Of a stretch of 64,000 bases of DNA, positions 12,304 to 62,277 are shown piece after piece. The DNA comes from a virus. Lineage: Duplodnaviria > Heunggongvirae > Uroviricota > Caudoviricetes. The position numbers and the translations under genes are program-made. The notes beneath the pieces were generated by a model that saw only the letters and a program-made list of their open reading frames with translations, made no database searches and was not told the DNA's origin. Location of the stretch: IMG/VR virus record IMGVR_UViG_3300031134_000466. One strand, 5' to 3'. Numbering within the stretch: position 1 is the first letter of the stretch; each line of letters starts with the position of its first letter.

Positions 12304-12331
12304 TCCCGTACTGAACTACTAAGAAGGAAAC

Positions 12332-39276: not shown

Positions 39277-39328
39277 ATTATGAAAGCCGACCCGACAGAA
39301 ATTCTTTGTCAGGTCGGCTTTCATAATT
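39276..39328. terminator. bidirectional hairpin
   Basis: 22-nt arms aattatgaaagccgacccgaca / tgtcaggtcggctttcataatt (1 mismatch). Confidence 0.8.
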
Positions 39329-40449
39329 CAGTCAGCAGTTTTTCCGTTCAAGTTCCAGAATGGCTTCTCAAACTCAGGCTGAATCATTTTCCAGATGATG
39401 TCAGAGATTTTCTTCTCAGACCTGGTATCAAAATGACCTCCGCTGTGACGAGAGAATAACAAACCAGTAATGCGTTTGTCTTCTTTCTGTACAGCTGCAG
39501 CGTAGTCCTTCTGAGTGTATCCTTCAGGAAGTTCAGAAAGAATACGGTTGTAAGTTTCCTCAACTGTTGCACGCAATTCAGCATGCTCTGCAAGTAGTCG
39601 GTCACGAGTTGTTTCGACATACTCAACGAACTCATCAGGGAGACCAACAATCCATGAAGTGAAGTCACCGTCAGCTACAAGCAGCTCCCAGATGCGACGC
39701 GAAGAAGCACCTGTGATGACACGGTGAAGCTGAACGTAGTCATCCTGTTTCACTTTCACTCGAACATCACTATCCAGGAAGTGAACAACAACGCCTTCTT
39801 TGTTCTCACGACCAGGAGCGGCCAAAGCTTCAGTAAGGCTGTTGTATTCAAACTGCTCAACCTTCAACCAAGTCCATTCATCAACCTGTGATGCTGGTAC
39901 AGAGCGACCTGTTGCTGTGTTCACTCGGGCAATCAAGATGAGGTCATCCAAATCACCGTAGTTAACAACGATACGGTTTGTAGGGTAGATGATTTCCCAG
40001 ATGTAAGTTTCACCAGCAAGTGGCTCCCATTTTCCGTCGTACAGCTCCTGGTAACGTGCTGTGGCATGCAGAGCCTGCTCAGAGCTGAATGAACCTCGTG
40101 TGGAGATGTTCAGTCGACCAGTTTCAGGGTTTACATATGAAACACCCATAGAACCATCTGCTTTGTCTGTGACAACGATAGGTCCAGTCAGTGCATCCTG
40201 AGGAACATCTGGTTCGCCGTGGTTAAAGAACTTACCAAGAGGGCGGGAGACAATCTCCTGGGTGGAACCGTCAACGATAAGTCCTCGTGAAGCTAATGTT
40301 GCAGCGTTCCAGGCTCGGTCAAACTGGCATACCTGTGAGTAGTCAAAGATAGCCAGGTCAAGCGTAGGGTGAACCTGACGATTGATGTGCTTGTTCTGGA
40401 ATTCAGCTGCCCAAAGTTCAGCAGGAGCGATATCGTAAATGTGTACCAT
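39328..40449 (-). CDS. ATP-dependent RNA ligase, paralog A
   Basis: 373 aa. Motif I 'TDKADGSM', 'WEIIYPTNRIVVNY', IV 'NKEGVVVH', V 'VRVKVK'. Confidence 0.75.
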   Translation of the reverse strand: MVHIYDIAPAELWAAEFQNKHINRQVHPTLDLAIFDYSQVCQFDRAWNAATLASRGLIVDGSTQEIVSRPLGKFFNHGEPDVPQDALTGPIVVTDKADGSMGVSYVNPETGRLNISTRGSFSSEQALHATARYQELYDGKWEPLAGETYIWEIIYPTNRIVVNYGDLDDLILIARVNTATGRSVPASQVDEWTWLKVEQFEYNSLTEALAAPGRENKEGVVVHFLDSDVRVKVKQDDYVQLHRVITGASSRRIWELLVADGDFTSWIVGLPDEFVEYVETTRDRLLAEHAELRATVEETYNRILSELPEGYTQKDYAAAVQKEDKRITGLLFSRHSGGHFDTRSEKKISDIIWKMIQPEFEKPFWNLNGKTAD

Positions 40450-46190: not shown

Positions 46191-46219
46191 TTGTCAGAGT
46201 GGAGTAAAGATGGTAGACT
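46191..46219 (+). promoter_or_regulatory. -35 TTGTCA / 17 nt / -10 TAGACT (TGGTAGACT)
   Basis: Canonical spacing. About 145 nt upstream of ATG 46366. Confidence 0.5.
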
Positions 46220-46365
46220 TGTCTCAGTTGGCGATAACAGTCGCCCGTCTCAAGTGGTTACTCCTACGCGGTTTCGCTGTTGAGAGCAAGGTCCCGAGGA
46301 TTCTGTTATCTCACCATCATTCTATTTGACGGTTGAGCGTAGGTTGACTGTCAGAAAATAGGTAA

Positions 46366-47154
46366 ATGATGACTACAAACAGTTTCCAGAAAAAAGCCAT
46401 TCGTGAACGAATGAAGCACACTGGTGAACCGTACCTCGAAGCTTCCCGCCAGCTTTATGGAACCTCTGACAAGTTTCCTACTCCATGGTCTGAACTCAAT
46501 AAAGTTTTGGACGGTGGACTAAGAAAAGGTTCAGTTACTCTTCTTGGCTCTGGACCAGGAGGAGGTGCCACAAGCACAGCTATCAGCATCGCAGAAGGTG
46601 CTAAAAATAAGAGAGCTTTGTATGTTTCCTCGGAAATCTATGGACAAGAATTTCGCACTTTGGACAGTAAGCGGGATGATGATTCTTCTGACCTTATTTT
46701 CATCTACATCGGGCGAGAACAGTTTGGTAACTTAGTCGGCTCTTTGAAAGGGATGGTGTCATCAGTACATGACATCAAAGATGAACCTGATGTCGAGCTT
46801 ATTGTTATTGACTCTTTCGACTTTCTGACTCCTGAACTGCCTACGGTCCAAGAAGCAGCTGCTATGTCTGCTCAAATTAAGAAAATGGCTATCGAGCTTA
46901 ACCTTCCAGTAGTTCTTCTTACTCATTTGAGTACACAATCTGCACACGAAAAAAACCACTTCAGACATTCTTCTGATTTGGTCCAAGACTCTGATGTAAT
47001 ACTCACCTCTCATGTTGAAGGAGAGGGTGTCAACTTAGTTGTTCGCAAAAACAGATTCGGGGACTACGGTCAAAAGATTGCTTTAGATTGGGACAAAAAG
47101 AACTGCTTAATGACATCGAAAAAGTCTACTAATAACTCCTCAGAAACCAACTGA
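46366..47154 (+). CDS. RecA/KaiC/DnaB-C superfamily P-loop protein with non-canonical Walker A
   Basis: 262 aa. 'LLGSGPGGGATST' (Lys replaced by Ala), Walker B-like 'ELIVIDSFDFL', N-terminal 'IRERMKHTGEPYLEASRQL'. Confidence 0.5.
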   Translation: MMTTNSFQKKAIRERMKHTGEPYLEASRQLYGTSDKFPTPWSELNKVLDGGLRKGSVTLLGSGPGGGATSTAISIAEGAKNKRALYVSSEIYGQEFRTLDSKRDDDSSDLIFIYIGREQFGNLVGSLKGMVSSVHDIKDEPDVELIVIDSFDFLTPELPTVQEAAAMSAQIKKMAIELNLPVVLLTHLSTQSAHEKNHFRHSSDLVQDSDVILTSHVEGEGVNLVVRKNRFGDYGQKIALDWDKKNCLMTSKKSTNNSSETN

Positions 47155-47248: not shown

Positions 47249-47668
47249 ATGAAGAAAACAAGCTATAATCATTGCATGCTCCCTGAAGGTATAATCACCC
47301 ATCGTAAGATCATTCAACTGCAATTTACTGATATTGCAGGCGATAATTACAGTATTGCTCAAATGGATGACAGCAATGCAGCTGTTGGACATTGCGAAGA
47401 TGTTTCCAGAACCATTCTCAACTCAGGTCTTCTTGAAAATGCTGAGTTAGTAAGTGTCGAAGCTCTCACAGGGAGTGAAGTCTGGTGGCATGTAGCGGTA
47501 GGTATCACTGATCCTGTTTCAGAAGAGCTCACAGTGTACGACTACACTGCACGTCAATTCAGTGCTAATTTGCCTTTCCCTTTAATTCAGCATTATGACA
47601 CATGGGTAAACACCATTGAAACACACGCTAAGAAAGGAACGCTGGCTTTCAGCGAACTCGTATGGTAA
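47249..47668 (+). CDS. hypothetical protein
   Basis: 139-aa ORF. Confidence 0.5.
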   Translation: MKKTSYNHCMLPEGIITHRKIIQLQFTDIAGDNYSIAQMDDSNAAVGHCEDVSRTILNSGLLENAELVSVEALTGSEVWWHVAVGITDPVSEELTVYDYTARQFSANLPFPLIQHYDTWVNTIETHAKKGTLAFSELVW

Positions 47669-48114
47669 ACATGACCCCAACACTTGACTTGAAAGAAAGT
47701 TTCACAGTCCAACGCTTCTACTCTGAGCTGAAAAGGCTAATCAGTTCTTTGGAAGCTGGCACACCAGTTACTGATGACGAGCGTATTTGGCTTATCGTGT
47801 TGAATGCAGGACTTGATAACTTCCAAGGCAGTTTCTATGCAGCAGAAGAACCTCAGCCAGACACTGTAGAAAACTGGTTACTTTTTGCGAACAACATTCA
47901 GATTAGCTTGTACGCATTATCCGATGAACAAGGATGGTTCTTCTTTAGAACAGGAACTCCAGGTGCAACGGTAAAAGAACTGCTCAAGTCTGAAGTGTCA
48001 TCCAACCTTCTTTCATCTACTGATTGGGATGCTTTGGTGTCCCAGCTGGAGAATGATGAGAGTAACGAAATGTTTATCGATGGCGAAGTGTACGTTTGTA
48101 ACGTGCGGTTCTAA
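47662..48114 (+). CDS. hypothetical protein
   Basis: 150-aa ORF overlapping the upstream stop codon by 7 nt. Confidence 0.5.
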   Translation: MVNMTPTLDLKESFTVQRFYSELKRLISSLEAGTPVTDDERIWLIVLNAGLDNFQGSFYAAEEPQPDTVENWLLFANNIQISLYALSDEQGWFFFRTGTPGATVKELLKSEVSSNLLSSTDWDALVSQLENDESNEMFIDGEVYVCNVRF

Positions 48115-48133
48115 GAATCCGATATAGGTCGAC

Positions 48134-48655
48134 ATGAATAAACTTGTAGTTGCCTGTGATGGTTCATGCCTAAAAAATCCAGGCGGCGCAATTGGATGGT
48201 CCTGGGCGGACAGCAAAGGACGCTGGCAAGCAAACGGTTTACCCACCGGGACAAACCAGGTAGCTGAACTTATTGGGTTATTGTCTGTCCTTTACGCTTT
48301 TCCTAATACAGACCTTCACATCAAAATTGACTCACGTTACGCTATGGACATCTCAACCAAATGGATGTTTACCTGGAAGAAGAATGGTTGGTGGCGTGAC
48401 ACTCAGCAGACAAAAGCAGTTAGCAACCTCACCCACGTGAAAGCTCTTTATGAAGCTCTTCGAATTAGAAAAAAGAAGAACCTTGTAACAACATTCGAAT
48501 GGGTGAAAGGCCATGCTTCTGACACTTTGAACAACAAAGCCGACAAAGAAGCTCAAGCAGCTGCCAGGCGAGTCAAAGCCGGCAAACTAGCGTATGCTGA
48601 CTCAGCAAAGAACACAACTTCTGAACGACAAACAAGAATGTTAGAAACCCTGTGA
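48134..48655 (+). CDS. rnhA: ribonuclease H (type 1)
   Basis: 173 aa. DEDD residues in 'VACDGSC', 'TNQVAELIG', 'IKIDSRY', 'NNKADKEA'. Confidence 0.85.
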   Translation: MNKLVVACDGSCLKNPGGAIGWSWADSKGRWQANGLPTGTNQVAELIGLLSVLYAFPNTDLHIKIDSRYAMDISTKWMFTWKKNGWWRDTQQTKAVSNLTHVKALYEALRIRKKKNLVTTFEWVKGHASDTLNNKADKEAQAAARRVKAGKLAYADSAKNTTSERQTRMLETL

Positions 48656-49461
48656 CTCTCACTATTGCTTCATACAACATCCAAGTGCCTGCCGCTAAAG
48701 CTGAATTCCATGGCTGGGAGGGGAGGAAAGAAGAACTGTTGGCAACGTTGCCAACTTTAGGTGATCTGTTTGGTTTACAAGAAGTTTCATACGTAGATAC
48801 TCAAGGGTCAGAGGTTTCAACCCAGCTACGTAACAACGGATTTGATGGTTATGAACCTTCACATAACGACTTTAGCGAATATGATGACGAATTCCATCAG
48901 AGAAATCCTATCTTCTGGAAAGCTGACAAATTTGAACTCAAACAAAGCCATGTAAGGCTACTCACTACAGGAACTGTCGAAGAGCAGCAAGAGCTTCCCA
49001 ATATTGAAAACAGATACAGCACTCACGTATTGCTGGAGCATGTTTCAGGTGATTTGATCCATTTCTTCAACCTTCACCAGCAGCATGTTCCCATTGAACT
49101 AACAGATGAAGAACTCATTGCCAAATATGCAGCGGTGCAGGTAAAAGGTCTGATAGCTTTGCACGAATTTGCTCAGGAAGTCAACCCAGAAAATAATCCT
49201 GCAATCATTGTTGGAGATTTCAACTCTGTTTCCCCAACTGTCATGGGGTTCACCTGTGCCAAGAAAGCCGCTAACGAAAACGTGAATGGCCAGTACAACA
49301 GCTACCACGGCTATGTAGAAGAAACGGCTGCTAACGGTGACTACATAATTGACCATATACTGTCAAATTTCCCAGCTGGTGACATTCTTCGCACTGAGAC
49401 TTTGATAGAAGACAAAGGCAGCGACCATTACCCTCTGCAAGCATCATTCAAACACTGCTGA
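48652..49461 (+). CDS. endonuclease/exonuclease/phosphatase (EEP) family protein
   Basis: 269 aa. 'IASYNIQ', 'IIVGDFNS', 'DHILSN', 'GSDHYPL'. GTGA overlap with the rnhA stop codon. Confidence 0.75.
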   Translation: MTLTIASYNIQVPAAKAEFHGWEGRKEELLATLPTLGDLFGLQEVSYVDTQGSEVSTQLRNNGFDGYEPSHNDFSEYDDEFHQRNPIFWKADKFELKQSHVRLLTTGTVEEQQELPNIENRYSTHVLLEHVSGDLIHFFNLHQQHVPIELTDEELIAKYAAVQVKGLIALHEFAQEVNPENNPAIIVGDFNSVSPTVMGFTCAKKAANENVNGQYNSYHGYVEETAANGDYIIDHILSNFPAGDILRTETLIEDKGSDHYPLQASFKHC

Positions 49462-49519
49462 CGATAGTAAAAAATAGACTTCCGGTAGACTTGAACTCTG
49501 CCTAACCAGATTTGGAACC

Positions 49520-50176
49520 ATGAGAATAGTAGTAGCTGATTGTTCAGTCATTTACACAGGAAGAGGAGACACCCGTCTTCCCCGAGCAGTCCGAGCGATC
49601 ATTGTCAAAGATGATGGTTCAATCTCAGTGCATAACGACAAAAGTAACAAACCTTTGAACTATATGGGTAAAGGTAACGAGCTTTCAGAAGTTGAGCTGG
49701 AAGATTGTAAACTATGGTTCTTTGACACAAGGCAAGAAAGTCTCCGCATTACTTTACATGAAGTTATTTCTGACACTGATTTCCTCCTTGATCGAAACGA
49801 TGAAGGACTGATCCGTGACGGCACAGAGAAGCAGCTGCAGGCTTGGTTAGCAGAGAACCCAGAAGCATTAGGTGAAGGCTATACTTTCGTTCAAAGAGAA
49901 TATCAGACAGGTGCAGGAGCTGTTGATTTGTTAGTCACTGACCCTGAAGGTAACCCTGTGGCGGTAGAAGTGAAACGAGTGGCCATGATTAACAGTGTGA
50001 GCCAGACACAACGTTATGTTGAGTCGATGAAAGAGGACCCTGAGTTTGCCAATACCACTGGCATTATCGCCGCTTTAGACATTCGACCTAACACTGTGAA
50101 GTTAGCGGACAAAAAGAAAATCCGCTGTGTCACTTTACCAACATGGTGGCGTGACCCAGCGGATACTTCAATGTAA
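49520..50176 (+). CDS. nucS: endonuclease NucS (EndoMS)
   Basis: 218 aa. 'MRIVVADCSVIYTGRGDTRLP', 'GAGAVDLLVTDPEGNPVAVEVKR', 'QTQRYVESM'. Confidence 0.9.
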   Translation: MRIVVADCSVIYTGRGDTRLPRAVRAIIVKDDGSISVHNDKSNKPLNYMGKGNELSEVELEDCKLWFFDTRQESLRITLHEVISDTDFLLDRNDEGLIRDGTEKQLQAWLAENPEALGEGYTFVQREYQTGAGAVDLLVTDPEGNPVAVEVKRVAMINSVSQTQRYVESMKEDPEFANTTGIIAALDIRPNTVKLADKKKIRCVTLPTWWRDPADTSM

Positions 50177-50177: not shown

Positions 50178-50666
50178 TCAGCCGTCAAACTTTTCGACAT
50201 CTTGAGGTGCTACACGGTAAGCGTATTCTGTTTTTGCTGACAGGTAGTACACGTACAGCTTGTCAGTTTTGTCAGTACTGGTTTCCAGAATGTAATTACG
50301 TTTTGCATCTTCATCCAAGAACCCGTTCTGATTGTGAAGCATCTCAAGCGATTCTTCTTTTGTAAGGCCAAGATAAGAGTAGTTCTTGTCAAACCATTTC
50401 AAATAGCTTTTTTCTGAAATAGCTACTTTCTGTTGGGGCTGGAAGAATGAAATGTGCCAGAAGCTGAAACCGGCAGCTCCTACAAGAAGGAGAGTGAATA
50501 GCCAGGTCAGGATAACAGGAAGTTGCCTGATGGCAGGGATAATCATGCCCAGGATGAGTAACCCTGCTGGGATGAGGAGGAACCAGAAGTTGAAGTTCTC
50601 ATACCCAGATAGATCATGAGGAGGCAACCAACCAGTGAGGTCTTCCAGTGTGATGTCGTTGGGCAT
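50178..50666 (-). CDS. membrane protein
   Basis: 162 aa with two TM segments. AAGGAA RBS. Confidence 0.55.
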   Translation of the reverse strand: MPNDITLEDLTGWLPPHDLSGYENFNFWFLLIPAGLLILGMIIPAIRQLPVILTWLFTLLLVGAAGFSFWHISFFQPQQKVAISEKSYLKWFDKNYSYLGLTKEESLEMLHNQNGFLDEDAKRNYILETSTDKTDKLYVYYLSAKTEYAYRVAPQDVEKFDG

Positions 50667-50744: not shown

Positions 50745-50774
50745 TTTGACAGCTGGCTGGGTTTCATGGTAAGT
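50745..50774 (+). promoter_or_regulatory. -35 TTGACA / 18 nt / -10 TAAGTT (TGGTAAGTT)
   Basis: Upstream of the Pnkp gene. Argues against the track's TTG 50774 start. Confidence 0.55.
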
Positions 50775-50800
50775 TGGAGTATCTTAAGTTAGGAAACAAA

Positions 50801-51706
50801 ATGTCACAGATAATGCGGATTCACCGTGGAGTGCAAGGCTCTGGTAAATCCACAGAAGCCATCCGTTGGGTGAACCAGGACCCGTTAAACCGTGCCCGTG
50901 TGAACCGTGATGACATTCGTCTCAGCCAGTTCGGCTCCTACGAGCTTCCTCAGGAACTCGAAGTTGCTGTTACCAAAGTAGAGCATGCCATCATCACCGC
51001 ACTTCTTGCTGCACGCAAAAGTGTTGTTGTTGACAATGTGAACCTGAAAGCCAAGTACGTTAAAGAGTACCTGCTTATTGCGGAGAAAGCCAACGTACCT
51101 GTTGTGCATCAGGACTTCCCTGTGGAGTTGGAGACAGCTCTTGCTCGTAACGCTGCTCGTGACCGTAAAGTCCCTGCACATGTGATTGAGACAACATTCA
51201 AGCGTTACATTCAGAGTGGCAAGTTCCCTCCGTTCCCCGTACTTGACTACGAAGCCGCTGCAGCAGGAATCTATGTTCCTGATGAGACTCTGCCTAAAGC
51301 TATCCTTTTGGATGTTGACGGCACAGCCATGAAGATGGGTTCACATCGTGGACCGTTTGACTGGCACAAAGTCATTGATGACGAGCCTAACCCGCCTGTT
51401 GTTGAAACAGTAAAAGCTTTGCATGCTCAGGGCTACAAAGTTGTTGTCATGTCTGGTCGTGATGAAGTCTGCAAAACAGACACGTTACTTTCTCTGGAAG
51501 TAGCTGGTGTTCCTGTGGATGAAATCTACATGAGACCCCACAACGATTACCGTAAAGACAACATCATCAAGCGTGAACTTTTTGATGCTCACATTCGGGA
51601 GCGTTTCAACATCCTGTTAGCTTTGGATGACCGGAACCAGGTTGTGGACGCTTACCGTCGTGAGCTGGGTCTTCCTGTCTTTCAGGTTGACTACGGAGAC
51701 TTCTAA
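50801..51706 (+). CDS. polynucleotide kinase-phosphatase (Pnkp): P-loop 5'-kinase + HAD 3'-phosphatase
   Basis: 'HRGVQGSGKST' and 'LLDVDGT', 'VVMSGRDE', 'ALDDRNQVV'. AGGAAA RBS. Confidence 0.8.
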   Translation: MSQIMRIHRGVQGSGKSTEAIRWVNQDPLNRARVNRDDIRLSQFGSYELPQELEVAVTKVEHAIITALLAARKSVVVDNVNLKAKYVKEYLLIAEKANVPVVHQDFPVELETALARNAARDRKVPAHVIETTFKRYIQSGKFPPFPVLDYEAAAAGIYVPDETLPKAILLDVDGTAMKMGSHRGPFDWHKVIDDEPNPPVVETVKALHAQGYKVVVMSGRDEVCKTDTLLSLEVAGVPVDEIYMRPHNDYRKDNIIKRELFDAHIRERFNILLALDDRNQVVDAYRRELGLPVFQVDYGDF

Positions 51707-51757: not shown

Positions 51758-52729
51758 TTAAATTTCTCGCAGCTGCACAATTGTCAGTTCAGTTGCTTCA
51801 CCTTTTTTATTGACCCTTTTGACTTTCACATCATTAGCAACAACTTCGAATTTTGCACCACGAGGAATGATGAACTCATACTCTCTTGGACCTTGCGATG
51901 AAATAGCTGTGATTGGGGCTCCACTTTTTGTAAGAATCTGTAAAGAAACATTGATGTTGTCTTTGGAAGGTAAATCTTGAGGATTCAAACTTGTCGATAA
52001 GAAGAATTTAGGTTCGTAAGTGCTACCAACAGGGAAATGTTTGTCGAGGTTTTGAGCGTCATCACTTGAATGATATCCTTTTTCATCATAAAGATGATGA
52101 CGGCGGTAAACCATCACGCCTTCTTCTGCTGGTTCGTGTTTAGCAAAAGCATCATCCAGGATAGTTACAGCTGCATCCAACGTTTCAGGTGCAACATTTT
52201 TTGCGTACGGATTTGTTGAAGCTGAAAGATGGCCGTTGATGTCAGCATAGCCATCTTCTGAATACCAGCGAAGAGTAGCTATTTCAGTATCATCCAGTTT
52301 GGCACTCCAGTTTTGGGAATCTGCCATGCTGTTCAACAGGTCAGCATGTTTGTAATGCATCTCTTCAAGAGTGTCACCAGTTTCGAAAAACGTCGGAGAA
52401 GTGTAAGCAGCTTTTTGTGCTTTTTTGTGGGTGATGACTTTACGATCCGCAACAGCAGCTAATCTTCTGGCTCGTTCTTGAGAAAGCGCTTCGTATTCTT
52501 CTGCATGCCATTCCTGCGTTGGATTCTTTTTGATCTGTCTTTCCAAAGACTTTAGATAAGCTGGTGTTAGTTTGTACTCTGCTTCAGCTTTTCTTCTTAC
52601 CGCTATTAGCTTCTCAAGCTCTGGGTCTTTGCGGTTGTCCATGAAAGCACTGAGAACCGCTTGATGAGCTTTAGCGTAGGTGGCTGCAGCATGAGCTGAA
52701 CAACGGGGACCAGGTTTTGGGTAACACAT
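51758..52729 (-). CDS. R-S-ExE ADP-ribosyltransferase 3 with N-terminal C-x7-C-x2-H module
   Basis: 323 aa. 'MCYPKPGPRCSAHAA' is identical to the ART 2 N-terminus. 'VMVYRRH', 'LSTSLN', 'REYEFIIPRG'. Confidence 0.7.
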   Translation of the reverse strand: MCYPKPGPRCSAHAAATYAKAHQAVLSAFMDNRKDPELEKLIAVRRKAEAEYKLTPAYLKSLERQIKKNPTQEWHAEEYEALSQERARRLAAVADRKVITHKKAQKAAYTSPTFFETGDTLEEMHYKHADLLNSMADSQNWSAKLDDTEIATLRWYSEDGYADINGHLSASTNPYAKNVAPETLDAAVTILDDAFAKHEPAEEGVMVYRRHHLYDEKGYHSSDDAQNLDKHFPVGSTYEPKFFLSTSLNPQDLPSKDNINVSLQILTKSGAPITAISSQGPREYEFIIPRGAKFEVVANDVKVKRVNKKGEATELTIVQLREI

Positions 52730-53068: not shown

Positions 53069-53097
53069 TTGCTGGATACCGTGTTCTGTGGTAGACT
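53069..53097 (+). promoter_or_regulatory. -35 TTGCTG / 17 nt / -10 TAGACT (TGGTAGACT)
   Basis: 49-nt leader with an AAAGGG RBS before ATG 53147. Confidence 0.55.
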
Positions 53098-53146
53098 TGA
53101 GTAACATACAACGCAGCATCACACAGTTCACTGAAAGGGTTCCATT

Positions 53147-54121: not shown

Positions 54122-55363
54122 ATGTCAACTACAAGAAAACCTCCTTATCATCACAGCGATGGTACAAACTGCTGGACTAAAGATTGTTCGATCAGAGGCC
54201 GTGAAGATACAGAAAAAGCTGCTTTCTTCAAGCAAGTAGAAACAGCTGCTGAGACTGTTGTTCCAACCAATGAATTGCCTCCTCTGTCAGCTTTTCAGAA
54301 AGCCTATGATGATGGTCGCATTGAGTGCAGCCGCCACCCTGAACATCCTTATGTGACTTACAAGTATTCCAGAACAACTCAGTTTGCTTCTGACTGGGAT
54401 GATGTGACCTTAGCGTCTCGTGGTGTCATCTTCAATGAGGAGACAGGCGAGATTGTTGCTCGTCCATTTGCTAAGTTCTTCAACCATAACGAACCGTCAG
54501 TTCCCAGAGACAAATTACATGGCCGTATTAGTGTAACTGACAAGCTGGACGGTTCTTTAGGAATTGGTTATGTTGATGAGAACGGTAAGTTCAACATTGC
54601 AACCTCTGGAAGCTTTATCTCTGAACAGGCAAAACGTTCTACAGAGCTCTATCATGAGCGTTATGAAGGCAACTGGAAGCCAAATCCTAAGTTGACCTAC
54701 ATGTGGGAAATCATCTACCCAGAAAATCGTGTCGTGGTCAACTATGGCGATGAAGATGACTTGCATCTCATCGGTGCTGTCAACAAACGAACTGGTAAAT
54801 CAGTTCCGTTGCGTGACATCAAAGAATGGAAGTGGAAAAGAGCTGAAGAGTACAAAGACTTCTCCTCCTTGGATGCTGTTCTTCACTCTCCTGAAAGAGA
54901 AAACCGTGAAGGTTTCATTGTTCATTACATCGATACTGATACCCGCGTGAAATACAAGCATGCAGATTATCTTGAGCTCCATCGTAACCGTACTGGCGTG
55001 ACTTCCAAAACTATCTGGCGTAAAATGCGTATGGGTGAAGATATGGCAGGTTGGAAAGAGAACATGCCTGAAGAGTTCAGTGAGTTCGTATCCACTCGTC
55101 AAGCTAAAATCACTGCCGGATATAACAAAGAAATTGCCCAAATTACTGATGAGCATGGCACTTTCAAAGCAACTCTTCCTGCTGGTTATGACCGTAAGAC
55201 TTTTGCTACCACTTTGAAAAACTCACCTCTTGTACCAGCCGAAAACAAAGCTTTCGTCATGAACCTTGAGTTCAACGGCAGTGCTGTTGGAAGTGTTGTT
55301 CAATCTCATAAGATTTGGGACCGTGTGAAACCTGAGGACGAGAACACCTTGTGGAACATGTAA
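54122..55363 (+). CDS. ATP-dependent RNA ligase, paralog B (with Cys-containing N-terminal extension)
   Basis: 413 aa. 'TDKLDGSL', 'WEIIYPENRVVVNY', 'NREGFIVH', 'TRVKYK'. Collinear with paralog A. Confidence 0.75.
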   Translation: MSTTRKPPYHHSDGTNCWTKDCSIRGREDTEKAAFFKQVETAAETVVPTNELPPLSAFQKAYDDGRIECSRHPEHPYVTYKYSRTTQFASDWDDVTLASRGVIFNEETGEIVARPFAKFFNHNEPSVPRDKLHGRISVTDKLDGSLGIGYVDENGKFNIATSGSFISEQAKRSTELYHERYEGNWKPNPKLTYMWEIIYPENRVVVNYGDEDDLHLIGAVNKRTGKSVPLRDIKEWKWKRAEEYKDFSSLDAVLHSPERENREGFIVHYIDTDTRVKYKHADYLELHRNRTGVTSKTIWRKMRMGEDMAGWKENMPEEFSEFVSTRQAKITAGYNKEIAQITDEHGTFKATLPAGYDRKTFATTLKNSPLVPAENKAFVMNLEFNGSAVGSVVQSHKIWDRVKPEDENTLWNM

Positions 55364-55746: not shown

Positions 55747-56412
55747 ATGAAGAACACATACGGAATTCTCGGCGGATATGGGGCGGTAGCCACCCTACAT
55801 CTCCAGCAGCTGCTCGTGAAGCGAGTCCTCAGCACTGGACAGTACGCTGATATTGCCTTCCCTCGTATGGTAATTTCCAATCTGCCTGAAGACATCATCA
55901 ATGCTGAAGGACATATCAGCAGCCTTGGTAGCCTGCGGACTGAACTTGGTAAAACAGCTCCTCTATTCCAAGGAGCCACAGATGTTTATGTCATTTGTAA
56001 CACCTTCCATGTCGAAGAAGAGTTCATGCAGCGAGTCTTCGCTAACAAACTACATTCTGTTCCGGCTTTAACCAGTCAAGCTGTCGTAGATGCTGGATAC
56101 TCCAAACCTCTTATCGTAGGTTCCAAGCTGACTTCTCAGGATAACCTGTACAGTCATACAGCTTACACCTCAACTAACATGTTTGCGGATGAGCTAATCA
56201 CTGCTGGAATGAAGTACCAGACATCTCACTCTCAGCTGGCAGATGTCATAGCTGCTGCCAAACAGGCTAGCTCAGACTGCATTGTTTTAGGTTGCACAGA
56301 TTTGTCCGTGATGGCTGACACTCTCCGAACCATGACTGCACTTCCCGTAATCGACTCCGTTGAAGCAGTCGCCAACCATATTTACAACTCCCATACGAAA
56401 GATGAATCGTGA
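55747..56412 (+). CDS. Asp/Glu/hydantoin racemase-superfamily enzyme (two-Cys type)
   Basis: 221 aa. 'YGILGGYGAVAT', 'VYVICNTFH', 'IVLGCTDLS', 'PVIDSV'. Confidence 0.75.
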   Translation: MKNTYGILGGYGAVATLHLQQLLVKRVLSTGQYADIAFPRMVISNLPEDIINAEGHISSLGSLRTELGKTAPLFQGATDVYVICNTFHVEEEFMQRVFANKLHSVPALTSQAVVDAGYSKPLIVGSKLTSQDNLYSHTAYTSTNMFADELITAGMKYQTSHSQLADVIAAAKQASSDCIVLGCTDLSVMADTLRTMTALPVIDSVEAVANHIYNSHTKDES

Positions 56413-57374
56413 AAGTCTACAACGACACAGTAACCATGACTGCAGAGCTGGCTCAGACCTTAGAGCAATTGAGAGCTGTGCGGGCTTTTGACGCTACAGA
56501 ATGGATTGAGCGTAAGGTTGTCCTAATCAACCAGTACTTCGCTCAGAACAAGCTCTCAGGGGCTGTAGTAGGTGTTTCTGGTGGCATCGACTCAGCTGTA
56601 GCCCTTTCACTTCTTGTCAAAGCATCCCAGCAAGACAACAGCCCAATTCAGAAGATTGTCCCTCTTCTACTTCCTGCTCTTTCTTACGAAGGTGCAACTA
56701 ACCAAGACGGGGCAGTTCAGCAGGCTACTGACCTATGCCAGAACCTTGGACTGAAGCCAGCTGTTTTCACTAAGCTCACATCTCTTTCCCAAGTGATTAC
56801 TTCTGAACTGGAAGACATTCTGGACATCAAATCAACAGACTGGGCTAAAGGACAGCTAGTGGCTTACACCAGAACCCCAGTCCTGTACAACACCTGCTCA
56901 ATCCTTACTGACGCCGGCTACCCTGCACTGGTTGTAGGAACCACAAACCTTTCCGAAGGTGGATACCTCGGTTATGTCGGAAAAGCTTCAGATGGTATGG
57001 TTGACCTGCAAGTAATTTCTGATTTGTACAAGTCAGAAGTGTACAAAGTCGCAGCTTTACTTGAAGTTCCTGAAAGCGTTATGAAAGCTACTCCTACAGG
57101 GGACATGTACGACGGTCGTGAAGATGAAACAGTTTTCGGAGCTTCTTACGACTTCGTAGAGCTGTTTCATCTATGGCTACAGGCACGCAGCGTCCCATTG
57201 AAACTTCTTCGAGATGCCCACTTTGTCACAGGAGCTAAAAACCTGCAAAAACTGCACGACTACAACGCACATAAGTACACCTACGGAACTCCATCCATTC
57301 ACCTGGACATTATGAACGCAGCAATCCCAAACGGATGGAACAATCAGCCTTGGAGGCCCCAGAATGGCAACTAA
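56409..57374 (+). CDS. divergent NadE-family PP-loop amidotransferase (NAD or NMN synthetase-like)
   Basis: 321 aa. 'GVSGGIDSAV', 'VVGTTNLSEGGYLGYVGKASDGMVD', 'ATPTGDMY..EDETVFGASYDFVE'. GTGA overlap with the upstream stop codon. Confidence 0.7.
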   Translation: MKVYNDTVTMTAELAQTLEQLRAVRAFDATEWIERKVVLINQYFAQNKLSGAVVGVSGGIDSAVALSLLVKASQQDNSPIQKIVPLLLPALSYEGATNQDGAVQQATDLCQNLGLKPAVFTKLTSLSQVITSELEDILDIKSTDWAKGQLVAYTRTPVLYNTCSILTDAGYPALVVGTTNLSEGGYLGYVGKASDGMVDLQVISDLYKSEVYKVAALLEVPESVMKATPTGDMYDGREDETVFGASYDFVELFHLWLQARSVPLKLLRDAHFVTGAKNLQKLHDYNAHKYTYGTPSIHLDIMNAAIPNGWNNQPWRPQNGN

Positions 57375-58104
57375 ATTCGTAAACCAAGTCAACTTCGAAA
57401 TCCCTACTGTTGCTCACACAGTTCAAGTGAGACCGTTCCCTGAACTTGACCGTACAGCGGTAGTGATTCCTGAACTCGTCCCTGCCGAGGAAAAAGTCAG
57501 TATCATGGCAGCGTTGGAAGACTCCAACTGGCAGCCAGTGTCAGTGACAGGAATGTCAGGAAACTGGAAAGAAGGTGACCCTATTGGTTCTTACCGTGCT
57601 TCCAACTACACTCCTGAGTATGCTGAAGTTCTGTGGAACAGAATCAAACACGGTTTCCCTACTGTACGCACATTCACAGATGCTGATAACACCGACTTCG
57701 ATGGTCATGAGCTGTGGGAACCCATTGGCGTGTCACCTCTTCTTCGATTCATCAAATATGAAGAAGGCGGCTGGCTTGTAGTTCATTACGATGCTCCGTA
57801 TGTCGAATCAGAAGATGTTCGCACACTCCAAAGCCTTGTCGTATATCTGGAACACCCAGGTGAACTTCACGGAGGAGCAACCCGCTACCTTCATGACCCT
57901 CAGGCTCATCTTCCTGTTACTCAGCGTGAACTCAACGACGAATACCGTGCTGCTGAAGAAGATGAAGTGAGACTCCGCTTCGCTCCTGAAGATGGAACAG
58001 CTGTAGTCTTCGACCACCGCCTTCTGCATGACGCTGAAAAGGTCACAGGAACTGGCACAAAAACAATCATTCGAACAGACATTATGTACAGGAAAGTACG
58101 ATGA
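57364..58104 (+). CDS. 2OG-Fe(II) oxygenase (P4H-like)
   Basis: 246 aa. 'VVHYDAP' (HxD), 'VVFDHRLLHDAE' (distal His), 'KTIIRTDIMY'. 11-nt overlap with the upstream gene. Confidence 0.65.
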   Translation: MATKFVNQVNFEIPTVAHTVQVRPFPELDRTAVVIPELVPAEEKVSIMAALEDSNWQPVSVTGMSGNWKEGDPIGSYRASNYTPEYAEVLWNRIKHGFPTVRTFTDADNTDFDGHELWEPIGVSPLLRFIKYEEGGWLVVHYDAPYVESEDVRTLQSLVVYLEHPGELHGGATRYLHDPQAHLPVTQRELNDEYRAAEEDEVRLRFAPEDGTAVVFDHRLLHDAEKVTGTGTKTIIRTDIMYRKVR

Positions 58105-59624
58105 ATTTAGACAGATACTTCCAGGCTCTTTACGAAAGAACCAATAGTAAGCAGGACTTAGTAACAGCAGGTTGGATTGAAAACAAGCCGCTACGCATCA
58201 ACCCGCATGTGCGATTCTACACAACCCCTCTGCAAGCTATTCGTGACGCGGGCAAAAAGGACGTATCTGTCTTGTTCTACCCTGGTTGTTTCGCTCCAGT
58301 CCATGAAGGTCACCTTGGGGCTATGAGGCTGGCCAAAGAAGCAATTGAAACCCAGACAGGCGAGACTGTAGCTGCAGGCTATTTCACCCCTGACCATGAT
58401 AACTACATCATGCGTAAAACTCATGACGAACGTTTCATCGCACCTAACCGCATCGCTCTTCTCCATGAAGCAGTAGAAAATGAACCCTGGATGCAGGTGG
58501 ACGACTGGGCTTCACTGTACGCTCCCACTGATTTGAACTTCACAACACTATATGACAGGTTCAACCTTTACCTGAAGCGTTGGTTACCTGACTTGAACAT
58601 CAAGCTGTACATGGTTTTTGGTGGAGACAACTACATGTTTGCGAACAGTTTCACTGAATACGGACACGGTGTTTGTGTGCCAAGAGAAGGAGCTCAGATG
58701 GACTTGAGCTTAGTTCACCCTGATGCCAAAAAGCGGGTTATTTTCAGCGAAAAAGTCTGTACAGACCATTCTTCTACAGCTGCACGAGCAGCAAACCCTG
58801 GAGCTATCGATATCCACGGCAGAAGTGCATTAGGTTCCACCTATGTACTTCGTGAAGACTTGGACTTAGCTTTCCGAGAGAACCCTACTACTTACTCGAA
58901 CAAAATTATTGCTGACTCTGTAGCTATTCTTTTGCAGGCGCATGTGCCGTACGAGAAAGTCAAAGTGAAAAGAGTTCCCATTATCAGGCAGATGGCTAAC
59001 CATACTGAGACAGAGAATGTGATTTCCTTAGACTGTTTCTGGAAAGCAGAGCAGAACCTTGAAATTTCTCGCCTGTTTTCAACTGGAGGCAGTCAGCACC
59101 ATGCCATCAAATACGTCAACCGTCCTGGCTCGCCGGCTCTTCAAGAGCAGGTAGAAGCAATTCCTGCTGGAGTGTACACTCTCGTAGATGATGACATTGC
59201 TACTGGGGAGACAATGAGTTTTGTTTCCAACATGCTGGAAACGCACGATGTTGTTGTTGATAAGCAGGACAGCCTGATTTCCGAGCTGGGTTCTGACTTG
59301 TACGATGTAGTTGATTTGCGAGACTTTGTTCTTGGAACCGAACACGGCGGACTGACGGTTGCAACTCCTACAGGAGAAACGACAAGAATGCCTTACATCG
59401 CTCCTTATGTGAATCTTGTAAGCCGTGCTCGCATTAACCCTGACCGGGTGTTCAGTTTCTCCACCGAACTGTGGAAATTGAACTATGCACTTTACCGTAA
59501 TACGAAAACTACAGTAGGTGACATCAAAGAACATCAGGACTTCACCATGTTCGGTTTTGCCGAAGACATGACAGTGGCTGACTTGTGCCAAAAGCATCTT
59601 CAATTGATGACTGAATTGCAGTAA
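58101..59624 (+). CDS. NadD/NMNAT-type adenylyltransferase fused to a type I phosphoribosyltransferase domain
   Basis: 507 aa. 'GCFAPVHEGHL' ((H/T)xGH), 'HSSTAAR' (SxTxxR), C-terminal PRPP-binding loop 'YTLVDDDIATGETM'. ATGA overlap with the upstream gene. Confidence 0.75.
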   Translation: MNLDRYFQALYERTNSKQDLVTAGWIENKPLRINPHVRFYTTPLQAIRDAGKKDVSVLFYPGCFAPVHEGHLGAMRLAKEAIETQTGETVAAGYFTPDHDNYIMRKTHDERFIAPNRIALLHEAVENEPWMQVDDWASLYAPTDLNFTTLYDRFNLYLKRWLPDLNIKLYMVFGGDNYMFANSFTEYGHGVCVPREGAQMDLSLVHPDAKKRVIFSEKVCTDHSSTAARAANPGAIDIHGRSALGSTYVLREDLDLAFRENPTTYSNKIIADSVAILLQAHVPYEKVKVKRVPIIRQMANHTETENVISLDCFWKAEQNLEISRLFSTGGSQHHAIKYVNRPGSPALQEQVEAIPAGVYTLVDDDIATGETMSFVSNMLETHDVVVDKQDSLISELGSDLYDVVDLRDFVLGTEHGGLTVATPTGETTRMPYIAPYVNLVSRARINPDRVFSFSTELWKLNYALYRNTKTTVGDIKEHQDFTMFGFAEDMTVADLCQKHLQLMTELQ

Positions 59625-62238: not shown

Positions 62239-62268
62239 TCACAAAAACGTGCTTTTTCGTCAATATGA

Positions 62269-62277
62269 CGATATACT
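62269..62277 (+). promoter_or_regulatory. -10 element (CGATATACT)
   Basis: 35-nt leader with an AAGGAAGG RBS before ATG 62313. Confidence 0.5.

What the first reader, a model, noticed from the sequence alone, without database searches (positions are those of the whole stretch)
48134..50176. RNase H - EEP nuclease translational coupling next to a NucS/EndoMS gene
The rnhA stop codon and the EEP start overlap (GTGA at 48652-48655), which implies a stoichiometric pair. NucS follows after a 58-nt spacer that holds three tandem -10-like boxes: CGATAGTAA, AATAGACT and CGGTAGACT (49462-49491). NucS/EndoMS is the mismatch-specific endonuclease that replaces MutS/L in many Actinobacteria and Archaea. 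A copy on a mobile element could serve replication fidelity, recombination control or attack on mismatched or modified host DNA.
Basis: partly seen in the sequence, partly recalled or inferred. Interest (0 to 1): 0.5.

Follow-up and report, generated by a model that had tools for sequence, protein, structure and literature searches.

The report
NucS mismatch nuclease in giant phage
A very large phage-like genome carries its own version of NucS, the mismatch-cutting DNA repair enzyme previously reported as absent from viruses, beside an RNase H and a second phosphodiesterase; the overlap between those two neighbours is an ordinary feature of this genome.

Summary
These are RNase HI (48134-48655), an EEP-superfamily enzyme (48652-49461) whose GTG start overlaps the RNase H stop (GTGA), a 58-nt spacer, and a two-domain NucS/EndoMS homolog (49520-50176). 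All three proteins keep their catalytic residues.

The window is a strain variant of a 788,683-bp metagenome contig with huge-phage-like gene content. No capsid or terminase gene lies in the 64 kb.

The NucS belongs to a large clade found on contigs of 0.2-0.9 Mb and almost absent from 185,579 cellular species genomes. The clade has Tyr where the base-stacking Trp77 of EndoMS sits. The query and most close relatives lack the C-terminal clamp-binding tail, and the query scores below NCBI's NucS equivalog cut-offs.

The 4-bp overlap is ordinary here (4 of 37 same-strand gene pairs). RNase H-EEP-NucS synteny is limited to 4-5 of 37 NucS lineages, so a "stoichiometric pair" is not shown. The EEP resembles CCR4/TDP2/Nocturnin-type enzymes more than AP endonucleases.

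One of the three spacer "boxes" (GGTAGACTT) is a significantly recurrent intergenic, promoter-like motif.

Most likely function: a clamp-independent, phage-encoded mismatch endonuclease serving genome fidelity. This is inferred, not shown.

The parts
47249..47668 (+). Unknown 139-aa protein, first gene of the conserved block
   Evidence: No Pfam hit above cut-off. Homologs (34-46% identity) occupy the same position in L011/L012/L036/L037, L013/L014/L041 and L016.
47662..48114 (+). Unknown 150-aa protein, second gene of the block
   Evidence: No Pfam or PHROG hit. Weakly conserved (25-32% identity) at the same position in 3 lineages.
48119..48124 (+). CCGATA motif 15 nt before the RNase H ATG; candidate promoter or regulatory element of the operon
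   Evidence: CCGATA has 14 copies in the window, about 11 of them intergenic, all co-oriented with the downstream gene, and about 20-fold enriched in the 60 nt upstream of genes. The same CCGATAG lies 13-20 nt before the RNase H ATG in L011, L013 and L016. In 20 related loci, 43 of 83 copies are intergenic.
48134..48655 (+). RNase HI (type 1, with basic protrusion) plus a 28-aa C-terminal extension ending ERQTRMLETL
   Evidence: PF00075 E 8e-24. phrog_531 'Rnase H' E 3e-30. Alignment to E. coli RNase HI conserves D10/E48/D70/H124/D134 as D9/E45/D66/H127/D137. 74-80% identical in the related lineages.
48652..48655 (+). GTGA: EEP start codon overlapping the RNase H stop codon
   Evidence: Read directly. 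The same GTGA junction occurs in L011/L012, L013/L014 and L016. Four-base overlaps are common in this window (4 of 37 pairs).
48652..49461 (+). EEP-superfamily (endonuclease/exonuclease/phosphatase) metal-dependent phosphoesterase of a small, phage-restricted family
49462..49519 (+). 58-nt EEP-NucS spacer with CGATAGTAA (49462-49470), AATAGACT (49473-49480) and CGGTAGACTT (49483-49492); probable internal promoter for NucS
   Evidence: GGTAGACTT: 4 copies against 0.52 expected, 0 of 100 shuffles reach 4, all upstream of co-oriented genes. The copy at 49484 and the one at 12296 both lie 36 nt before an ATG. Three of the four copies read TGGTAGACT, the extended -10 form TGnTAnnnT; this one reads CGG. 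L011/L012 have tGGTAGGCTT before NucS, while L013 and L016 have spacers of only 21 and 5 nt. The sigma-70 scan is negative here.
49520..50176 (+). NucS/EndoMS homolog of the 'NYM' clade, with two domains, an intact nuclease site and no clamp-binding tail
   Evidence: NucS_N plus NucS_C. PDB 2vld E 5e-24 and 5gke E 1e-21, with Y12/R15/N47 = Y41/R44/N76, Y48 in place of W77, and D136/E150/K152 = D165/E179/K181. These residues are invariant in 121 close homologs. AF2 pLDDT 91.5, and the only significant fold matches are EndoMS/NucS (E 4e-20). NCBIfam NucS equivalogs score 200.6 bits (cut-off 252) and 133.1 bits (cut-off 216).
50178..50666 (-). Convergent 162-aa hydrophobic (probably membrane) protein of unknown function, conserved partner of the block
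   Evidence: No Pfam, PHROG, NCBIfam or PADLOC hit. Homologs (37-47% identity) end within a few bases of, or overlap, the NucS stop in all trio-bearing lineages.
50774..51706 (+). Polynucleotide kinase-phosphatase (T4 PNKP type), downstream member of the block in some lineages
   Evidence: HAD_PNKP E 6e-48 plus AAA_33. phrog_505 E 1e-87. 74-75% identical and at the same position in L011/L012/L036/L037 and L016.

Best explanation
This locus is part of a replication and repair gene block of a very large phage-like element (contig at least 789 kb).

Genes and expression. RNase HI and an EEP-superfamily phosphodiesterase are co-transcribed, probably from a CCGATA-type element 15 nt upstream of rnhA. 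They are probably translationally linked through the GTGA overlap. NucS follows as the third gene. In this genome it also has its own GGTAGACTT (extended -10-like) promoter candidate.

The NucS protein. It is a complete two-domain EndoMS/NucS enzyme of a distinct, virus-associated clade. I infer that it works like EndoMS. A dimer scans duplex phage DNA and flips the two mismatched bases into N-terminal pockets, here Tyr12/Asn47/Tyr48 in place of Tyr/Asn/Trp. The PD-(D/E)xK sites (D136/E150/K152) then cut both strands.

Clamp independence. The protein lacks the C-terminal clamp-binding tail that bacterial NucS needs in vivo. It presumably acts without a clamp or through another partner.

Repair of the break. 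The resulting break would be repaired from sister genome copies, or by short resection and ligation. The same element encodes candidate enzymes for this: a YqaJ/RNase T exonuclease, PNKP and ligases.

The neighbours. RNase HI would remove primers and RNA:DNA hybrids. The EEP would clean blocked nucleic-acid ends.

Benefit. The inferred benefit is a lower mutation load for a near-megabase viral genome.

Shown: gene identities, catalytic residues, fold, clade structure, synteny and motif statistics. Inferred: substrate, clamp independence, the physiological role, and any cooperation among the three proteins.
For: Identity and integrity:
- Pfam domains, PDB alignments, invariant residues, a confident NucS model whose only significant fold matches are EndoMS/NucS.
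- In published simulations of the EndoMS-DNA complex, the contacts from Trp77 to the flipped base come from its backbone N, plus stacking (PMC6829318). A Tyr can keep both.

Clade and distribution:
- 310 hits at E <= 1e-5. The best 120 are all 54-99% identical, and many lie on contigs of 0.5-0.9 Mb.
- In an NJ tree the NYM type is a nearly pure clade (66 Tyr, 2 Trp), sister to actinobacterial NucS.
- Only 2 MAG contigs were found in 185,579 GTDB species genomes.
- Relatives occur on IMG/VR viral contigs of 310-440 kb.
- 54 metagenome loci were found, 15 of them on contigs over 200 kb and none over 1 Mb.

Repair context:
- The block lies with PNKP, two Rnl1 ligases, a DnaB_C-like ATPase and a YqaJ+RNase T exonuclease.
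- In an independent lineage (L017), NucS lies between a RecG helicase and a weak NurA-like nuclease hit, with an RNase T-type exonuclease nearby.
- EEP-NucS adjacency survives a rearrangement in L053.

Literature:
- C. glutamicum NucS without its clamp tail still cuts mismatches in vitro (PMC6159521).
- M. smegmatis NucS recognises mismatches in vivo without a partner, and repair uses limited 5'-3' resection (PMC11551767).
Against: - No biochemical data exist for any member of this clade.
- In C. glutamicum, deleting the clamp tail abolishes the in vivo anti-mutator function. This protein has no such tail.
- The Trp77 position is changed.
- The protein falls below both NCBIfam NucS equivalog cut-offs.
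- RNase H and EEP accompany NucS in only 4-5 of 37 lineages. Those lineages are related to each other (DnaK 82%, PNKP 75% identical), so most of the synteny may be inherited and not selected.
- The EEP's substrate is unknown. In L015 its homolog sits with PARP and ART genes, not with NucS.
- No capsid, portal or terminase gene lies in the 64-kb window.
- No close relative of this lineage was found in IMG/VR or in INPHARED.
Confidence: 0.55

Rival explanations
1. NucS here acts as a structure-specific or recombination-control nuclease and not as a replication-error corrector. It would trim flaps, ssDNA or branched intermediates of recombination-dependent replication. Alternatively it would cut heteroduplexes to block homeologous recombination between co-infecting relatives.
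For: - NucS was first described as an ssDNA/flap endonuclease, and it suppresses homeologous recombination (established knowledge of the family; PMC5290159).
- Loss of the clamp tail uncouples the enzyme from the replisome.
- L017 places NucS next to RecG and a NurA-like nuclease.
- The element carries a YqaJ-type recombination exonuclease.
- Many related genomes co-occur in the same samples, so homeologous exchange is a realistic hazard.
Against: - The mismatch pocket residues Y12, R15 and N47 and an aromatic residue at position 48 are invariant across 121 homologs. This argues that base flipping is the selected activity.
- Later work reassigned archaeal NucS activity to mismatches (Ishino 2016, cited).
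Confidence: 0.2
2. The block is a conflict module. NucS, perhaps with the EEP and RNase H, would attack host or competitor DNA carrying mismatches, deaminated or modified bases. Alternatively it would repair damage inflicted on phage nucleic acids by host defences such as deaminases, ADP-ribosylation or anticodon nucleases.
For: - The neighbourhood is rich in host-takeover and counter-defence genes. These include three or four ADP-ribosyltransferases, WGR-PARP, PNKP plus two Rnl1 (the T4 tRNA-repair set), and NAD synthesis genes.
- An EEP homolog sits with ART and PARP in L015.
- L018 has a NucS-like gene beside GmrSD and a methylase.
- NucS-like nuclease domains are used in defence fusions (PMC12191111).
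Against: - PADLOC gives only weak hits of the generic nuclease core, and nothing for the other nine proteins.
- A mismatch-dependent nuclease has no obvious way to target intact host DNA.
- NucS contexts across 37 lineages are heterogeneous, with no recurrent defence or anti-defence partner.
Confidence: 0.12
3. The sequence is not viral. It would be a chromosome or megaplasmid of a small-genome bacterium, and NucS would be its ordinary cellular mismatch repair enzyme.
For: - No virion or terminase gene lies in the 64 kb.
- Contig sizes of 0.5-0.9 Mb overlap those of small cellular genomes.
- Cellular-type genes are present: DnaK, signal peptidase, an O-antigen ligase domain, ABC ATPase and a permease.
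- NucS does occur on megaplasmids and secondary replicons of Deinococcus, haloarchaea and actinobacteria.
Against: - There is no tRNA, and no ribosomal protein or rRNA gene turned up in any of the ORF family scans. I did not run an Rfam search on the window.
- About half the ORFs have no Pfam hit.
- T4-type PNKP, Rnl1 and Alt-like ART genes are present, with PHROG matches.
- The NKPLNYM-type NucS appears in only 2 MAG contigs among 185,579 GTDB species genomes. One of those (L017) shares the element-specific CCGATA intergenic motif.
- Relatives are classified as viral in IMG/VR.
- The DnaK resembles those of Lak and other megaphages.
Confidence: 0.08

Closest known systems
Actinobacterial NucS/EndoMS (e.g. 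Corynebacterium glutamicum, Mycobacterium smegmatis, Micrococcus luteus)
   Same: - Same short bacterial-type architecture, NucS_N plus NucS_C without the archaeal N-terminal extension.
- 42-44% identity to the Micrococcus and Microbacteriaceae clusters.
- Best NCBIfam hit is the actinobacterial-type model NF002876.
- Same D-E-K site and the same Tyr and Asn pocket residues.
- Sister clades in the NJ tree.
   Different: - Tyr in place of the pocket Trp (NYM, not NWM).
- No C-terminal ...RLF beta-clamp tail. That tail is essential in vivo in C. glutamicum (PMC6159521).
- Scores below the equivalog cut-off (200.6 against 252 bits).
- Encoded on huge phage-like contigs, not on actinobacterial chromosomes.
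Archaeal EndoMS/NucS (Thermococcus kodakarensis 5GKE, Pyrococcus abyssi 2VLD)
   Same: - The only significant structural neighbours of the model (E 4e-20 and 6e-20).
- 29-30% identity.
- All catalytic residues and two of three pocket residues align.
   Different: - Lacks the roughly 30-aa N-terminal extension and the C-terminal PCNA-binding motif.
- Trp77 is replaced by Tyr.
- Global TM-score is only about 0.47. I attribute this to a different relative placement of the two domains in the monomer model; I did not test that.
Halogranum tailed virus 1 ORF43 'RecB-like nuclease' and three unannotated human-gut 'Bacteriophage sp.' contigs
   Same: These are the only NucS-like genes in 50,697 deposited phage records (31-44% identity, over 90% coverage). 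They show that viral NucS homologs exist.
   Different: - They are distant: 31.5% identity for the archaeal virus.
- None is annotated or discussed as NucS.
- None has the RNase H-EEP neighbours, as far as I examined.
EEP enzymes of the CCR4/Nocturnin/TDP2/ANGEL2/PDE12 branch and uncharacterised Bacteroides EEPs (3MPR, 3G6S)
   Same: - Full set of EEP catalytic motifs.
   Different: - Sequence identity is only 16-26%.
- No substrate-defining insertions were examined.
- The family has only 9 members, all on phage-like contigs.
E. coli-type RNase HI and phage RNase H (phrog_531)
   Same: DEDD(H) active site and basic protrusion are conserved. PHROG match E 3e-30.
   Different: - A 28-residue C-terminal extension ends in the conserved ERQxRML[ED][ST]L.
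- Scores below the NCBIfam RNase HI equivalog cut-off (67.7 against 160 bits).

Membership tests
NucS/EndoMS endonuclease family | Two-domain architecture: N-terminal PH-like DNA-binding/dimerisation domain plus C-terminal PD-(D/E)xK nuclease domain | tested here: met
   PF21003 NucS_N 72.7 bits (cut-off 23.9), residues 2-92. PF01939 NucS_C 90.2 bits (cut-off 24), residues 103-206. The AF2 model's only significant fold matches are 5gke and 2vld.
NucS/EndoMS endonuclease family | Catalytic Asp-Glu-Lys (T. kodakarensis D165, E179, K181) | tested here: met
   D136, E150 and K152 align. They are invariant in 121 close homologs and in nearly all of 150 family representatives.
NucS/EndoMS endonuclease family | Mismatched-base pocket Tyr41 / Asn76 / Trp77 (plus Arg44 phosphate contact) | tested here: inconclusive
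   Y12, R15 and N47 are conserved. Position 77 is Tyr48 (NYM), invariant in the clade. Among 150 representatives, 75 have Tyr and 63 have Trp. The change is aromatic and plausibly functional, since the base contacts of Trp77 are backbone N plus stacking (PMC6829318). It is untested.
NucS/EndoMS endonuclease family | C-terminal sliding-clamp (beta-clamp/PCNA) binding motif | tested here: not met
   The query ends ...LPTWWRDPADTSM. Most close relatives end at, or shortly after, the conserved P-x-x-W-[RKN]. Actinobacterial representatives end ...RLF or ...TLF.
NucS/EndoMS endonuclease family | Score above NCBIfam curated equivalog cut-off for 'endonuclease NucS' | tested here: not met
   NF002876 scores 200.6 bits (cut-off 252). 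NF003270 scores 133.1 bits (cut-off 216).
NucS/EndoMS endonuclease family | Mismatch-specific double-strand cleavage leaving 5-nt 5' overhangs; anti-mutator role in vivo | not testable with these tools
   Requires enzyme assays and genetics.
RNase HI (type 1 RNase H) | Asp-Glu-Asp-(His)-Asp active site and RNase H fold | tested here: met
   PF00075 84.8 bits (cut-off 25.8). D9/E45/D66/H127/D137 align with E. coli D10/E48/D70/H124/D134. NCBIfam equivalog cut-offs are not reached (67.7 against 160).
EEP (endonuclease/exonuclease/phosphatase) superfamily | Conserved catalytic motifs (N, E, N/H, D-x-N, D, S-D-H) on the four-layer alpha/beta sandwich | tested here: met
   [not shown]
ExoIII/APE1-type AP endonucleases (the DNA-repair EEP branch) | Closest structural and sequence similarity to ExoIII/APE1/ExoA | tested here: not met
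   [not shown]
Translationally coupled gene pair | Stop codon of the upstream gene overlapping or abutting the start of the downstream gene on one mRNA | tested here: met
   GTGA at 48652-48655, conserved in four lineages. The feature is common here (4 of 37 pairs). SD cores are rare genome-wide (15 of 68 genes).
Translationally coupled gene pair | Downstream translation depends on upstream translation; fixed protein stoichiometry or a complex | not testable with these tools
   Needs reporter fusions, ribosome profiling or pull-downs.
Huge (jumbo/mega) tailed phages | Virion and packaging hallmark genes (major capsid, portal, large terminase) | tested here: inconclusive
   None among about 60 ORFs scanned in the 64-kb window. 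Only window-flanking DNA could be fetched. Indirect support comes from PHROG hits, T4-type PNKP/Rnl1/Alt-like ART genes, a megaphage-like DnaK and relatives in IMG/VR.

The most novel reading that the evidence does not exclude
The Tyr-pocket ('NYM'), clamp-tail-less NucS clade is a virus-borne, replisome-independent mismatch repair system. It would be characteristic of a lineage of 0.2-0.9 Mb phage-like genomes and would help make such genome sizes sustainable.

In the window's sub-lineage it may work as a physical RNase HI-EEP-NucS unit. The RNase H C-terminal ERQxRML..L peptide (Q-x-x-M-L, like a beta-clamp pentapeptide) would supply the clamp tether that NucS has lost. RNA primers or ribonucleotides would mark the nascent strand. 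That would bear on the unsolved strand-discrimination problem of NucS repair.
Probability: 0.1. Interest if true: 0.8.

Novelty: new variant of a known kind. Interest (0 to 1): 0.5.

Why it matters
NucS/EndoMS is the non-canonical mismatch repair nuclease of Actinobacteria and many Archaea. [quoted passage not shown] I found no paper in the searchable library linking NucS or EndoMS to jumbo or huge phages, and the 2026 jumbo-phage review never mentions mismatch repair.

If confirmed, this large, sequence-distinct clade on near-megabase phage-like genomes would matter in three ways:
- It would be the first viral mismatch-repair nuclease of this type.
- It would offer a natural test of whether NucS can work without a sliding clamp.
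- It would give a handle on how the largest phages keep their mutation load tolerable.

It also supplies a natural Trp-to-Tyr variant of the mismatch pocket for enzymology.

The part of the finding that prompted the flag, the RNase H/EEP overlap, is ordinary.

Tried and rejected
- Megablast of 6 kb around the locus against 50,697 phage records gave no match.
- The generic sigma-70 scan found no promoter in the spacer, and overall counts were no higher than in shuffles.
- A unified motif CGRTAGACT with up to 1 mismatch is not enriched by count (17 against 17.0). I therefore keep CCGATA and GGTAGACTT as separate motifs.
- The EEP has no PDB sequence match, no PHROG and no NCBIfam hit.
- A metagenome scan with EEP patterns gave 600 pattern hits, none confirmed.
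- IMG/VR scans with RNase H found only distant relatives (29-39% identity), unrelated to this lineage. Scans with PNKP and with DnaK found nothing.
- Extending beyond both window ends added no hallmark genes.
- The 172-aa protein upstream of NucS in L005 is not an RNase H.
- PADLOC finds no defence-system membership.
- The idea that the C-terminal P-x-x-W-[RKN] is a new clamp motif is rejected. By eye, from the C-termini listed, it lines up with the ...DAMRG segment that precedes the clamp tail in actinobacterial NucS. I did not test this separately.
- A first MAFFT L-INS-i run timed out and was repeated with --auto.
Full report
OBSERVATION

The three ORFs are at the stated coordinates: 48134-48655 (173 aa), 48652-49461 (269 aa, GTG start) and 49520-50176 (218 aa), all on the + strand. 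The sequence shows GTGA at 48652-48655, so the EEP start GTG overlaps the RNase H stop TGA. The spacer 49462-49519 is 58 nt and holds CGATAGTAA, AATAGACT and CGGTAGACT at 49462-49491.

Pfam confirms the families:
- RNase_H: E 8e-24.
- Exo_endo_phos: E 5.6e-7, 30.0 bits against a cut-off of 24.5.
- NucS_N plus NucS_C: E 2e-20 and 1e-25.

GTG is the only canonical start upstream of the invariant N-terminal S-Y-N-I catalytic motif. Homologs begin at the same aligned residue, some with ATG.

WHAT THE ELEMENT IS

The window is a strain variant of JGI metagenome contig Ga0308164_10000007, which is 788,683 bp. Protein identities to it are 92-99%.

The 64 kb is 92% coding and has no tRNA gene. It encodes:
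- a helicase, RNR small subunit, a YqaJ+RNase T exonuclease fusion, MazG, a dNMP-kinase/DNA-methyltransferase fusion and NT5C;
- WGR-PARP and three or four ADP-ribosyltransferases;
- two T4-type Rnl1 RNA ligases and PNKP;
- DnaK, a DnaB_C-only ATPase, two NAD synthases and an NMNAT-like protein;
- many ORFs with no family match.

The DnaK resembles those of Lak and other megaphages at 44-53% identity. No capsid, portal or terminase gene lies in the window. No near relative exists in INPHARED or in the IMG/VR set. I therefore call it a huge phage-like element with about 0.8 probability, not a proven phage.

THE NucS

Alignment to the solved structures 2VLD and 5GKE maps the key residues as follows:

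| T. kodakarensis EndoMS | This protein |
|---|---|
| Y41 | Y12 |
| R44 | R15 |
| N76 | N47 |
| D165 / E179 / K181 | D136 / E150 / K152 |
| W77 (base-stacking) | Y48 |

All 121 close homologs keep this 'NYM' signature and the D-E-K triad. An AF2 model (pLDDT 91.5) has EndoMS and NucS as its only significant fold matches.

An exhaustive search of 1.84 billion representative proteins gave 1,437 hits. Of the best 150, 75 have Tyr and 63 have Trp at this position. The Trp type includes authentic Micrococcus and Microbacteriaceae NucS (42-44% identical to the query) and frequently ends in ...RLF or ...TLF. That tail is the beta-clamp motif. It is essential in vivo in C. glutamicum, although dispensable for mismatch cutting in vitro (PMC6159521).

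The query ends ...LPTWWRDPADTSM. Most of its close clade stops at, or just after, a conserved P-x-x-W-[RKN]. By eye, this segment lines up with the part that precedes the clamp tail in actinobacterial proteins, so I do not read it as a new clamp motif.

In an NJ tree rooted on the archaeal proteins, the Tyr type forms a nearly pure clade (66 Tyr, 2 Trp), sister to the actinobacterial clade. The protein passes the Pfam thresholds but not NCBI's NucS equivalog cut-offs: 200.6 against 252 bits, and 133 against 216 bits.

DISTRIBUTION

- Close homologs lie on contigs of up to 908 kb.
- A metagenome scan returned 54 loci. Fifteen are on contigs over 200 kb, with several at 673-885 kb, and none is over 1 Mb.
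- IMG/VR holds relatives on viral contigs of 310-440 kb.
- The NKPLNYM-type signature appears in only two MAG contigs among 185,579 GTDB species genomes. That scan detects only sequences matching specific peptide patterns.
- One of the two, L017 (binned as Polynucleobacter), carries RecG - NucS - a weak NurA-like hit - SLT - an RNase T exonuclease. It shares the element-specific CCGATA intergenic motif, so it is probably the same kind of element.
- The other, L018, has a truncated NucS beside an EcoRI-type methylase and GmrSD.
- Deposited phage genomes contain only five distant hits: three unannotated gut contigs and haloarchaeal virus HGTV-1, which appears as two records.
- PLSDB has 19 canonical NucS genes, at most 43.5% identical, on Deinococcus, haloarchaeal and actinobacterial replicons.

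The reference survey of NucS reported it absent from viruses (PMC5290159). I found no paper linking NucS or EndoMS with huge or jumbo phages. Only the isolated C-terminal nuclease domain has been noted, in RNA-virus polyproteins and in a defence fusion.

THE NEIGHBOURS

The RNase H has the full E. coli-type active site and the basic protrusion.

It is therefore an end-processing or phosphodiester-hydrolysing enzyme of unknown substrate, not a recognisable AP endonuclease.

SYNTENY

The order unk139 - unk150 - RNase H - EEP - NucS - reverse-strand TM162 - PNKP recurs in the L011/12/36/37, L013/14/41, L016 and L080 lineages. The GTGA overlap is the same in the three I checked, L011/12, L013/14 and L016.

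These genomes are related to each other (DnaK 82%, PNKP 75%, RNase H 74-80% identical), so much of this synteny may simply be inherited. Among 37 NucS lineages defined at 90% identity, EEP is a neighbour in 5 and RNase H in 4.

One point of independent support comes from L053 (NucS 53% identical). There a 29%-identical EEP sits next to NucS in divergent orientation, with RNase H 4.7 kb away. Against this, in L015 the EEP homolog lies with ART and WGR-PARP and no NucS. Another NucS subclade has a NUDIX protein upstream.

So NucS is an autonomous gene. The link to RNase H and EEP is lineage-specific and only weakly supported as functional.

COUPLING AND PROMOTERS

Four-base overlaps are ordinary here: 4 of 37 same-strand pairs. 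Shine-Dalgarno cores precede only 15 of 68 genes. The overlap is therefore compatible with termination-reinitiation but says nothing about stoichiometry.

Two motifs are enriched upstream of genes:
- CCGATA has 14 copies, about 11 of them intergenic, and is about 20-fold enriched. It lies 15 nt before the rnhA ATG, and at the same place in three other lineages. Across 20 related loci, 43 of 83 copies are intergenic.
- GGTAGACTT has 4 copies against 0.52 expected, with 0 of 100 shuffles reaching 4. One copy lies 36 nt before the NucS ATG. This motif is specific to this genome and has the form of an extended -10 element (TGnTAnnnT in three of the four copies).

In relatives the EEP-NucS spacer is 45, 21 or 5 nt, so NucS is basically the third gene of the operon. 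In this genome it has an extra promoter candidate.

MECHANISM AND VERDICT

The best-supported reading (confidence 0.55) is a phage-encoded mismatch endonuclease that works like EndoMS but without a clamp tether. RNase HI and the EEP would be co-expressed replication and end-processing enzymes.

Rivals:
- A recombination or structure-specific role (0.2).
- A conflict or counter-defence role (0.12).
- A cellular origin for the sequence (0.08).

By domains, fold and active site this is a NucS family member. It fails the clamp-motif and equivalog criteria and differs at one pocket residue, so I class it as a new variant of a known kind.

The overlap that prompted the flag is ordinary. The viral NucS clade is the interesting part. 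Interest 0.5.

Noticed in passing
window 1588, 12228, 17579, 18384, 32907, 34267, 48119, 52766, 60246 (+); 5855, 17534, 29987 (-); also L005, L017, L078 and others: CCGATA[A/G/T] is a strongly intergenic motif, always co-oriented with the downstream gene. The window has 14 copies, about 11 intergenic, in 92% coding DNA. In 20 related loci, 43 of 83 copies are intergenic. It is probably the characteristic promoter or regulatory element of this family of elements, and I have not seen it described.
   Followed up: partly
window 12296-12304, 46212-46220, 49484-49492, 53090-53098 (+); related copies at 10735 (-) and 32914-32931 (+): The exact 9-mer GGTAGACTT occurs 4 times against 0.52 expected, always upstream of + strand genes. 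It has the extended -10 form (TGGTAGACT) in three copies. At 32907-32931, CCGATAA, GGTAGACAT and GGTAGACGT stand in tandem. The motif is specific to this genome and not shared with relatives.
   Followed up: partly
contigs behind L033, L036, L037, L038, L044 (Ga0308164_10000007, Ga0308164_10000004, Ga0308161_1000006, Ga0265797_10000002, Ga0308158_10000009): NucS-bearing contigs of 789-885 kb exceed the 735 kb that a 2026 review (PMC13282480) gives as the largest known phage genomes. If they are complete, non-chimeric phage genomes they would be record-sized. Their completeness and viral status were not verifiable here.
   Followed up: no
window 26372-27676 (+), 28539-29579 (+), 30500-31465 (+), 51758-52729 (-), 56409-57374 (+), 58101-59624 (+), 62265-63158 (+): A WGR-PARP protein, three or four ADP-ribosyltransferases, two NAD synthases and an NMNAT-like enzyme form an NAD make-and-use set of the kind reported for gut jumbo phages (PMC11662467). 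A eukaryote-like WGR+PARP catalytic architecture in a phage-like element is notable.
   Followed up: no
L015:2897-6807: In a different lineage the EEP homolog (47% identical) lies directly after WGR-PARP and an ART, and before RNR small subunit, with no RNase H or NucS nearby. This hints that the EEP's substrate could relate to ADP-ribosylation or NAD and not to DNA mismatch repair.
   Followed up: no
window 48569-48652 (RNase H residues 146-173): The RNase H has a C-terminal extension ending ERQxRML[ED][ST]L, invariant in four lineages. Q-x-x-M-L resembles a beta-clamp-binding pentapeptide, while the neighbouring NucS has lost its clamp tail. This is an untested idea.
   Followed up: no
L017:1195-8089: On a 91-kb contig binned as a Polynucleobacter MAG, the NYM-type NucS lies 20 nt after a RecG-family helicase. 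It is followed by a weak NurA-like hit, an SLT domain protein and an RNase T-type exonuclease. All four CCGATA copies there are intergenic, so the contig is probably a mis-binned element of the same family.
   Followed up: partly
L058:3282-5852 and homologs in L060, L061, L063, L066, L067, L070, L071, L073, L074: In the NucS subclade at 46-49% identity, an ~856-aa protein with a NUDIX domain and a weak NrtR-like winged helix lies directly upstream of NucS in 6 lineages. It is the most recurrent NucS neighbour found.
   Followed up: partly
window 14395-16512 (-): A 705-aa fusion of a YqaJ-type (lambda Exo-like) recombination exonuclease with an RNase T/DnaQ-type 3'-5' exonuclease. It is a candidate for processing NucS-made breaks.
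   Followed up: no
window 39328-40449 (-), 54122-55363 (+), 50774-51706 (+): Two T4 Rnl1-type RNA ligases plus a PNKP, the T4 tRNA-repair toolkit, flank the locus. PNKP is syntenic with NucS in two related lineages.
   Followed up: partly
window 46366-47154 (+): A 262-aa protein carries only the C-terminal RecA-like ATPase domain of DnaB (also RadA/Sms-like and RadB-like) and lacks the helicase N-terminal domain. Its role is unclear.
   Followed up: no
window 50178-50666 (-): A 162-aa hydrophobic protein with no family match ends 1 nt from the NucS stop. It is conserved (37-47% identity) in the same convergent position, sometimes overlapping the NucS 3' end, in every trio-bearing lineage.
   Followed up: partly
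whole window: Shine-Dalgarno cores precede only 15 of 68 genes (background 10%). This suggests SD-independent initiation and may hint at the host group.
   Followed up: no
L018:1554-5695: In a rumen actinobacterial MAG contig, an NYM-type NucS with a shortened nuclease-domain match lies next to an EcoRI-type adenine methylase and a GmrSD/HNH type IV restriction enzyme. This is a defence-island-like context unlike all the others.
   Followed up: no
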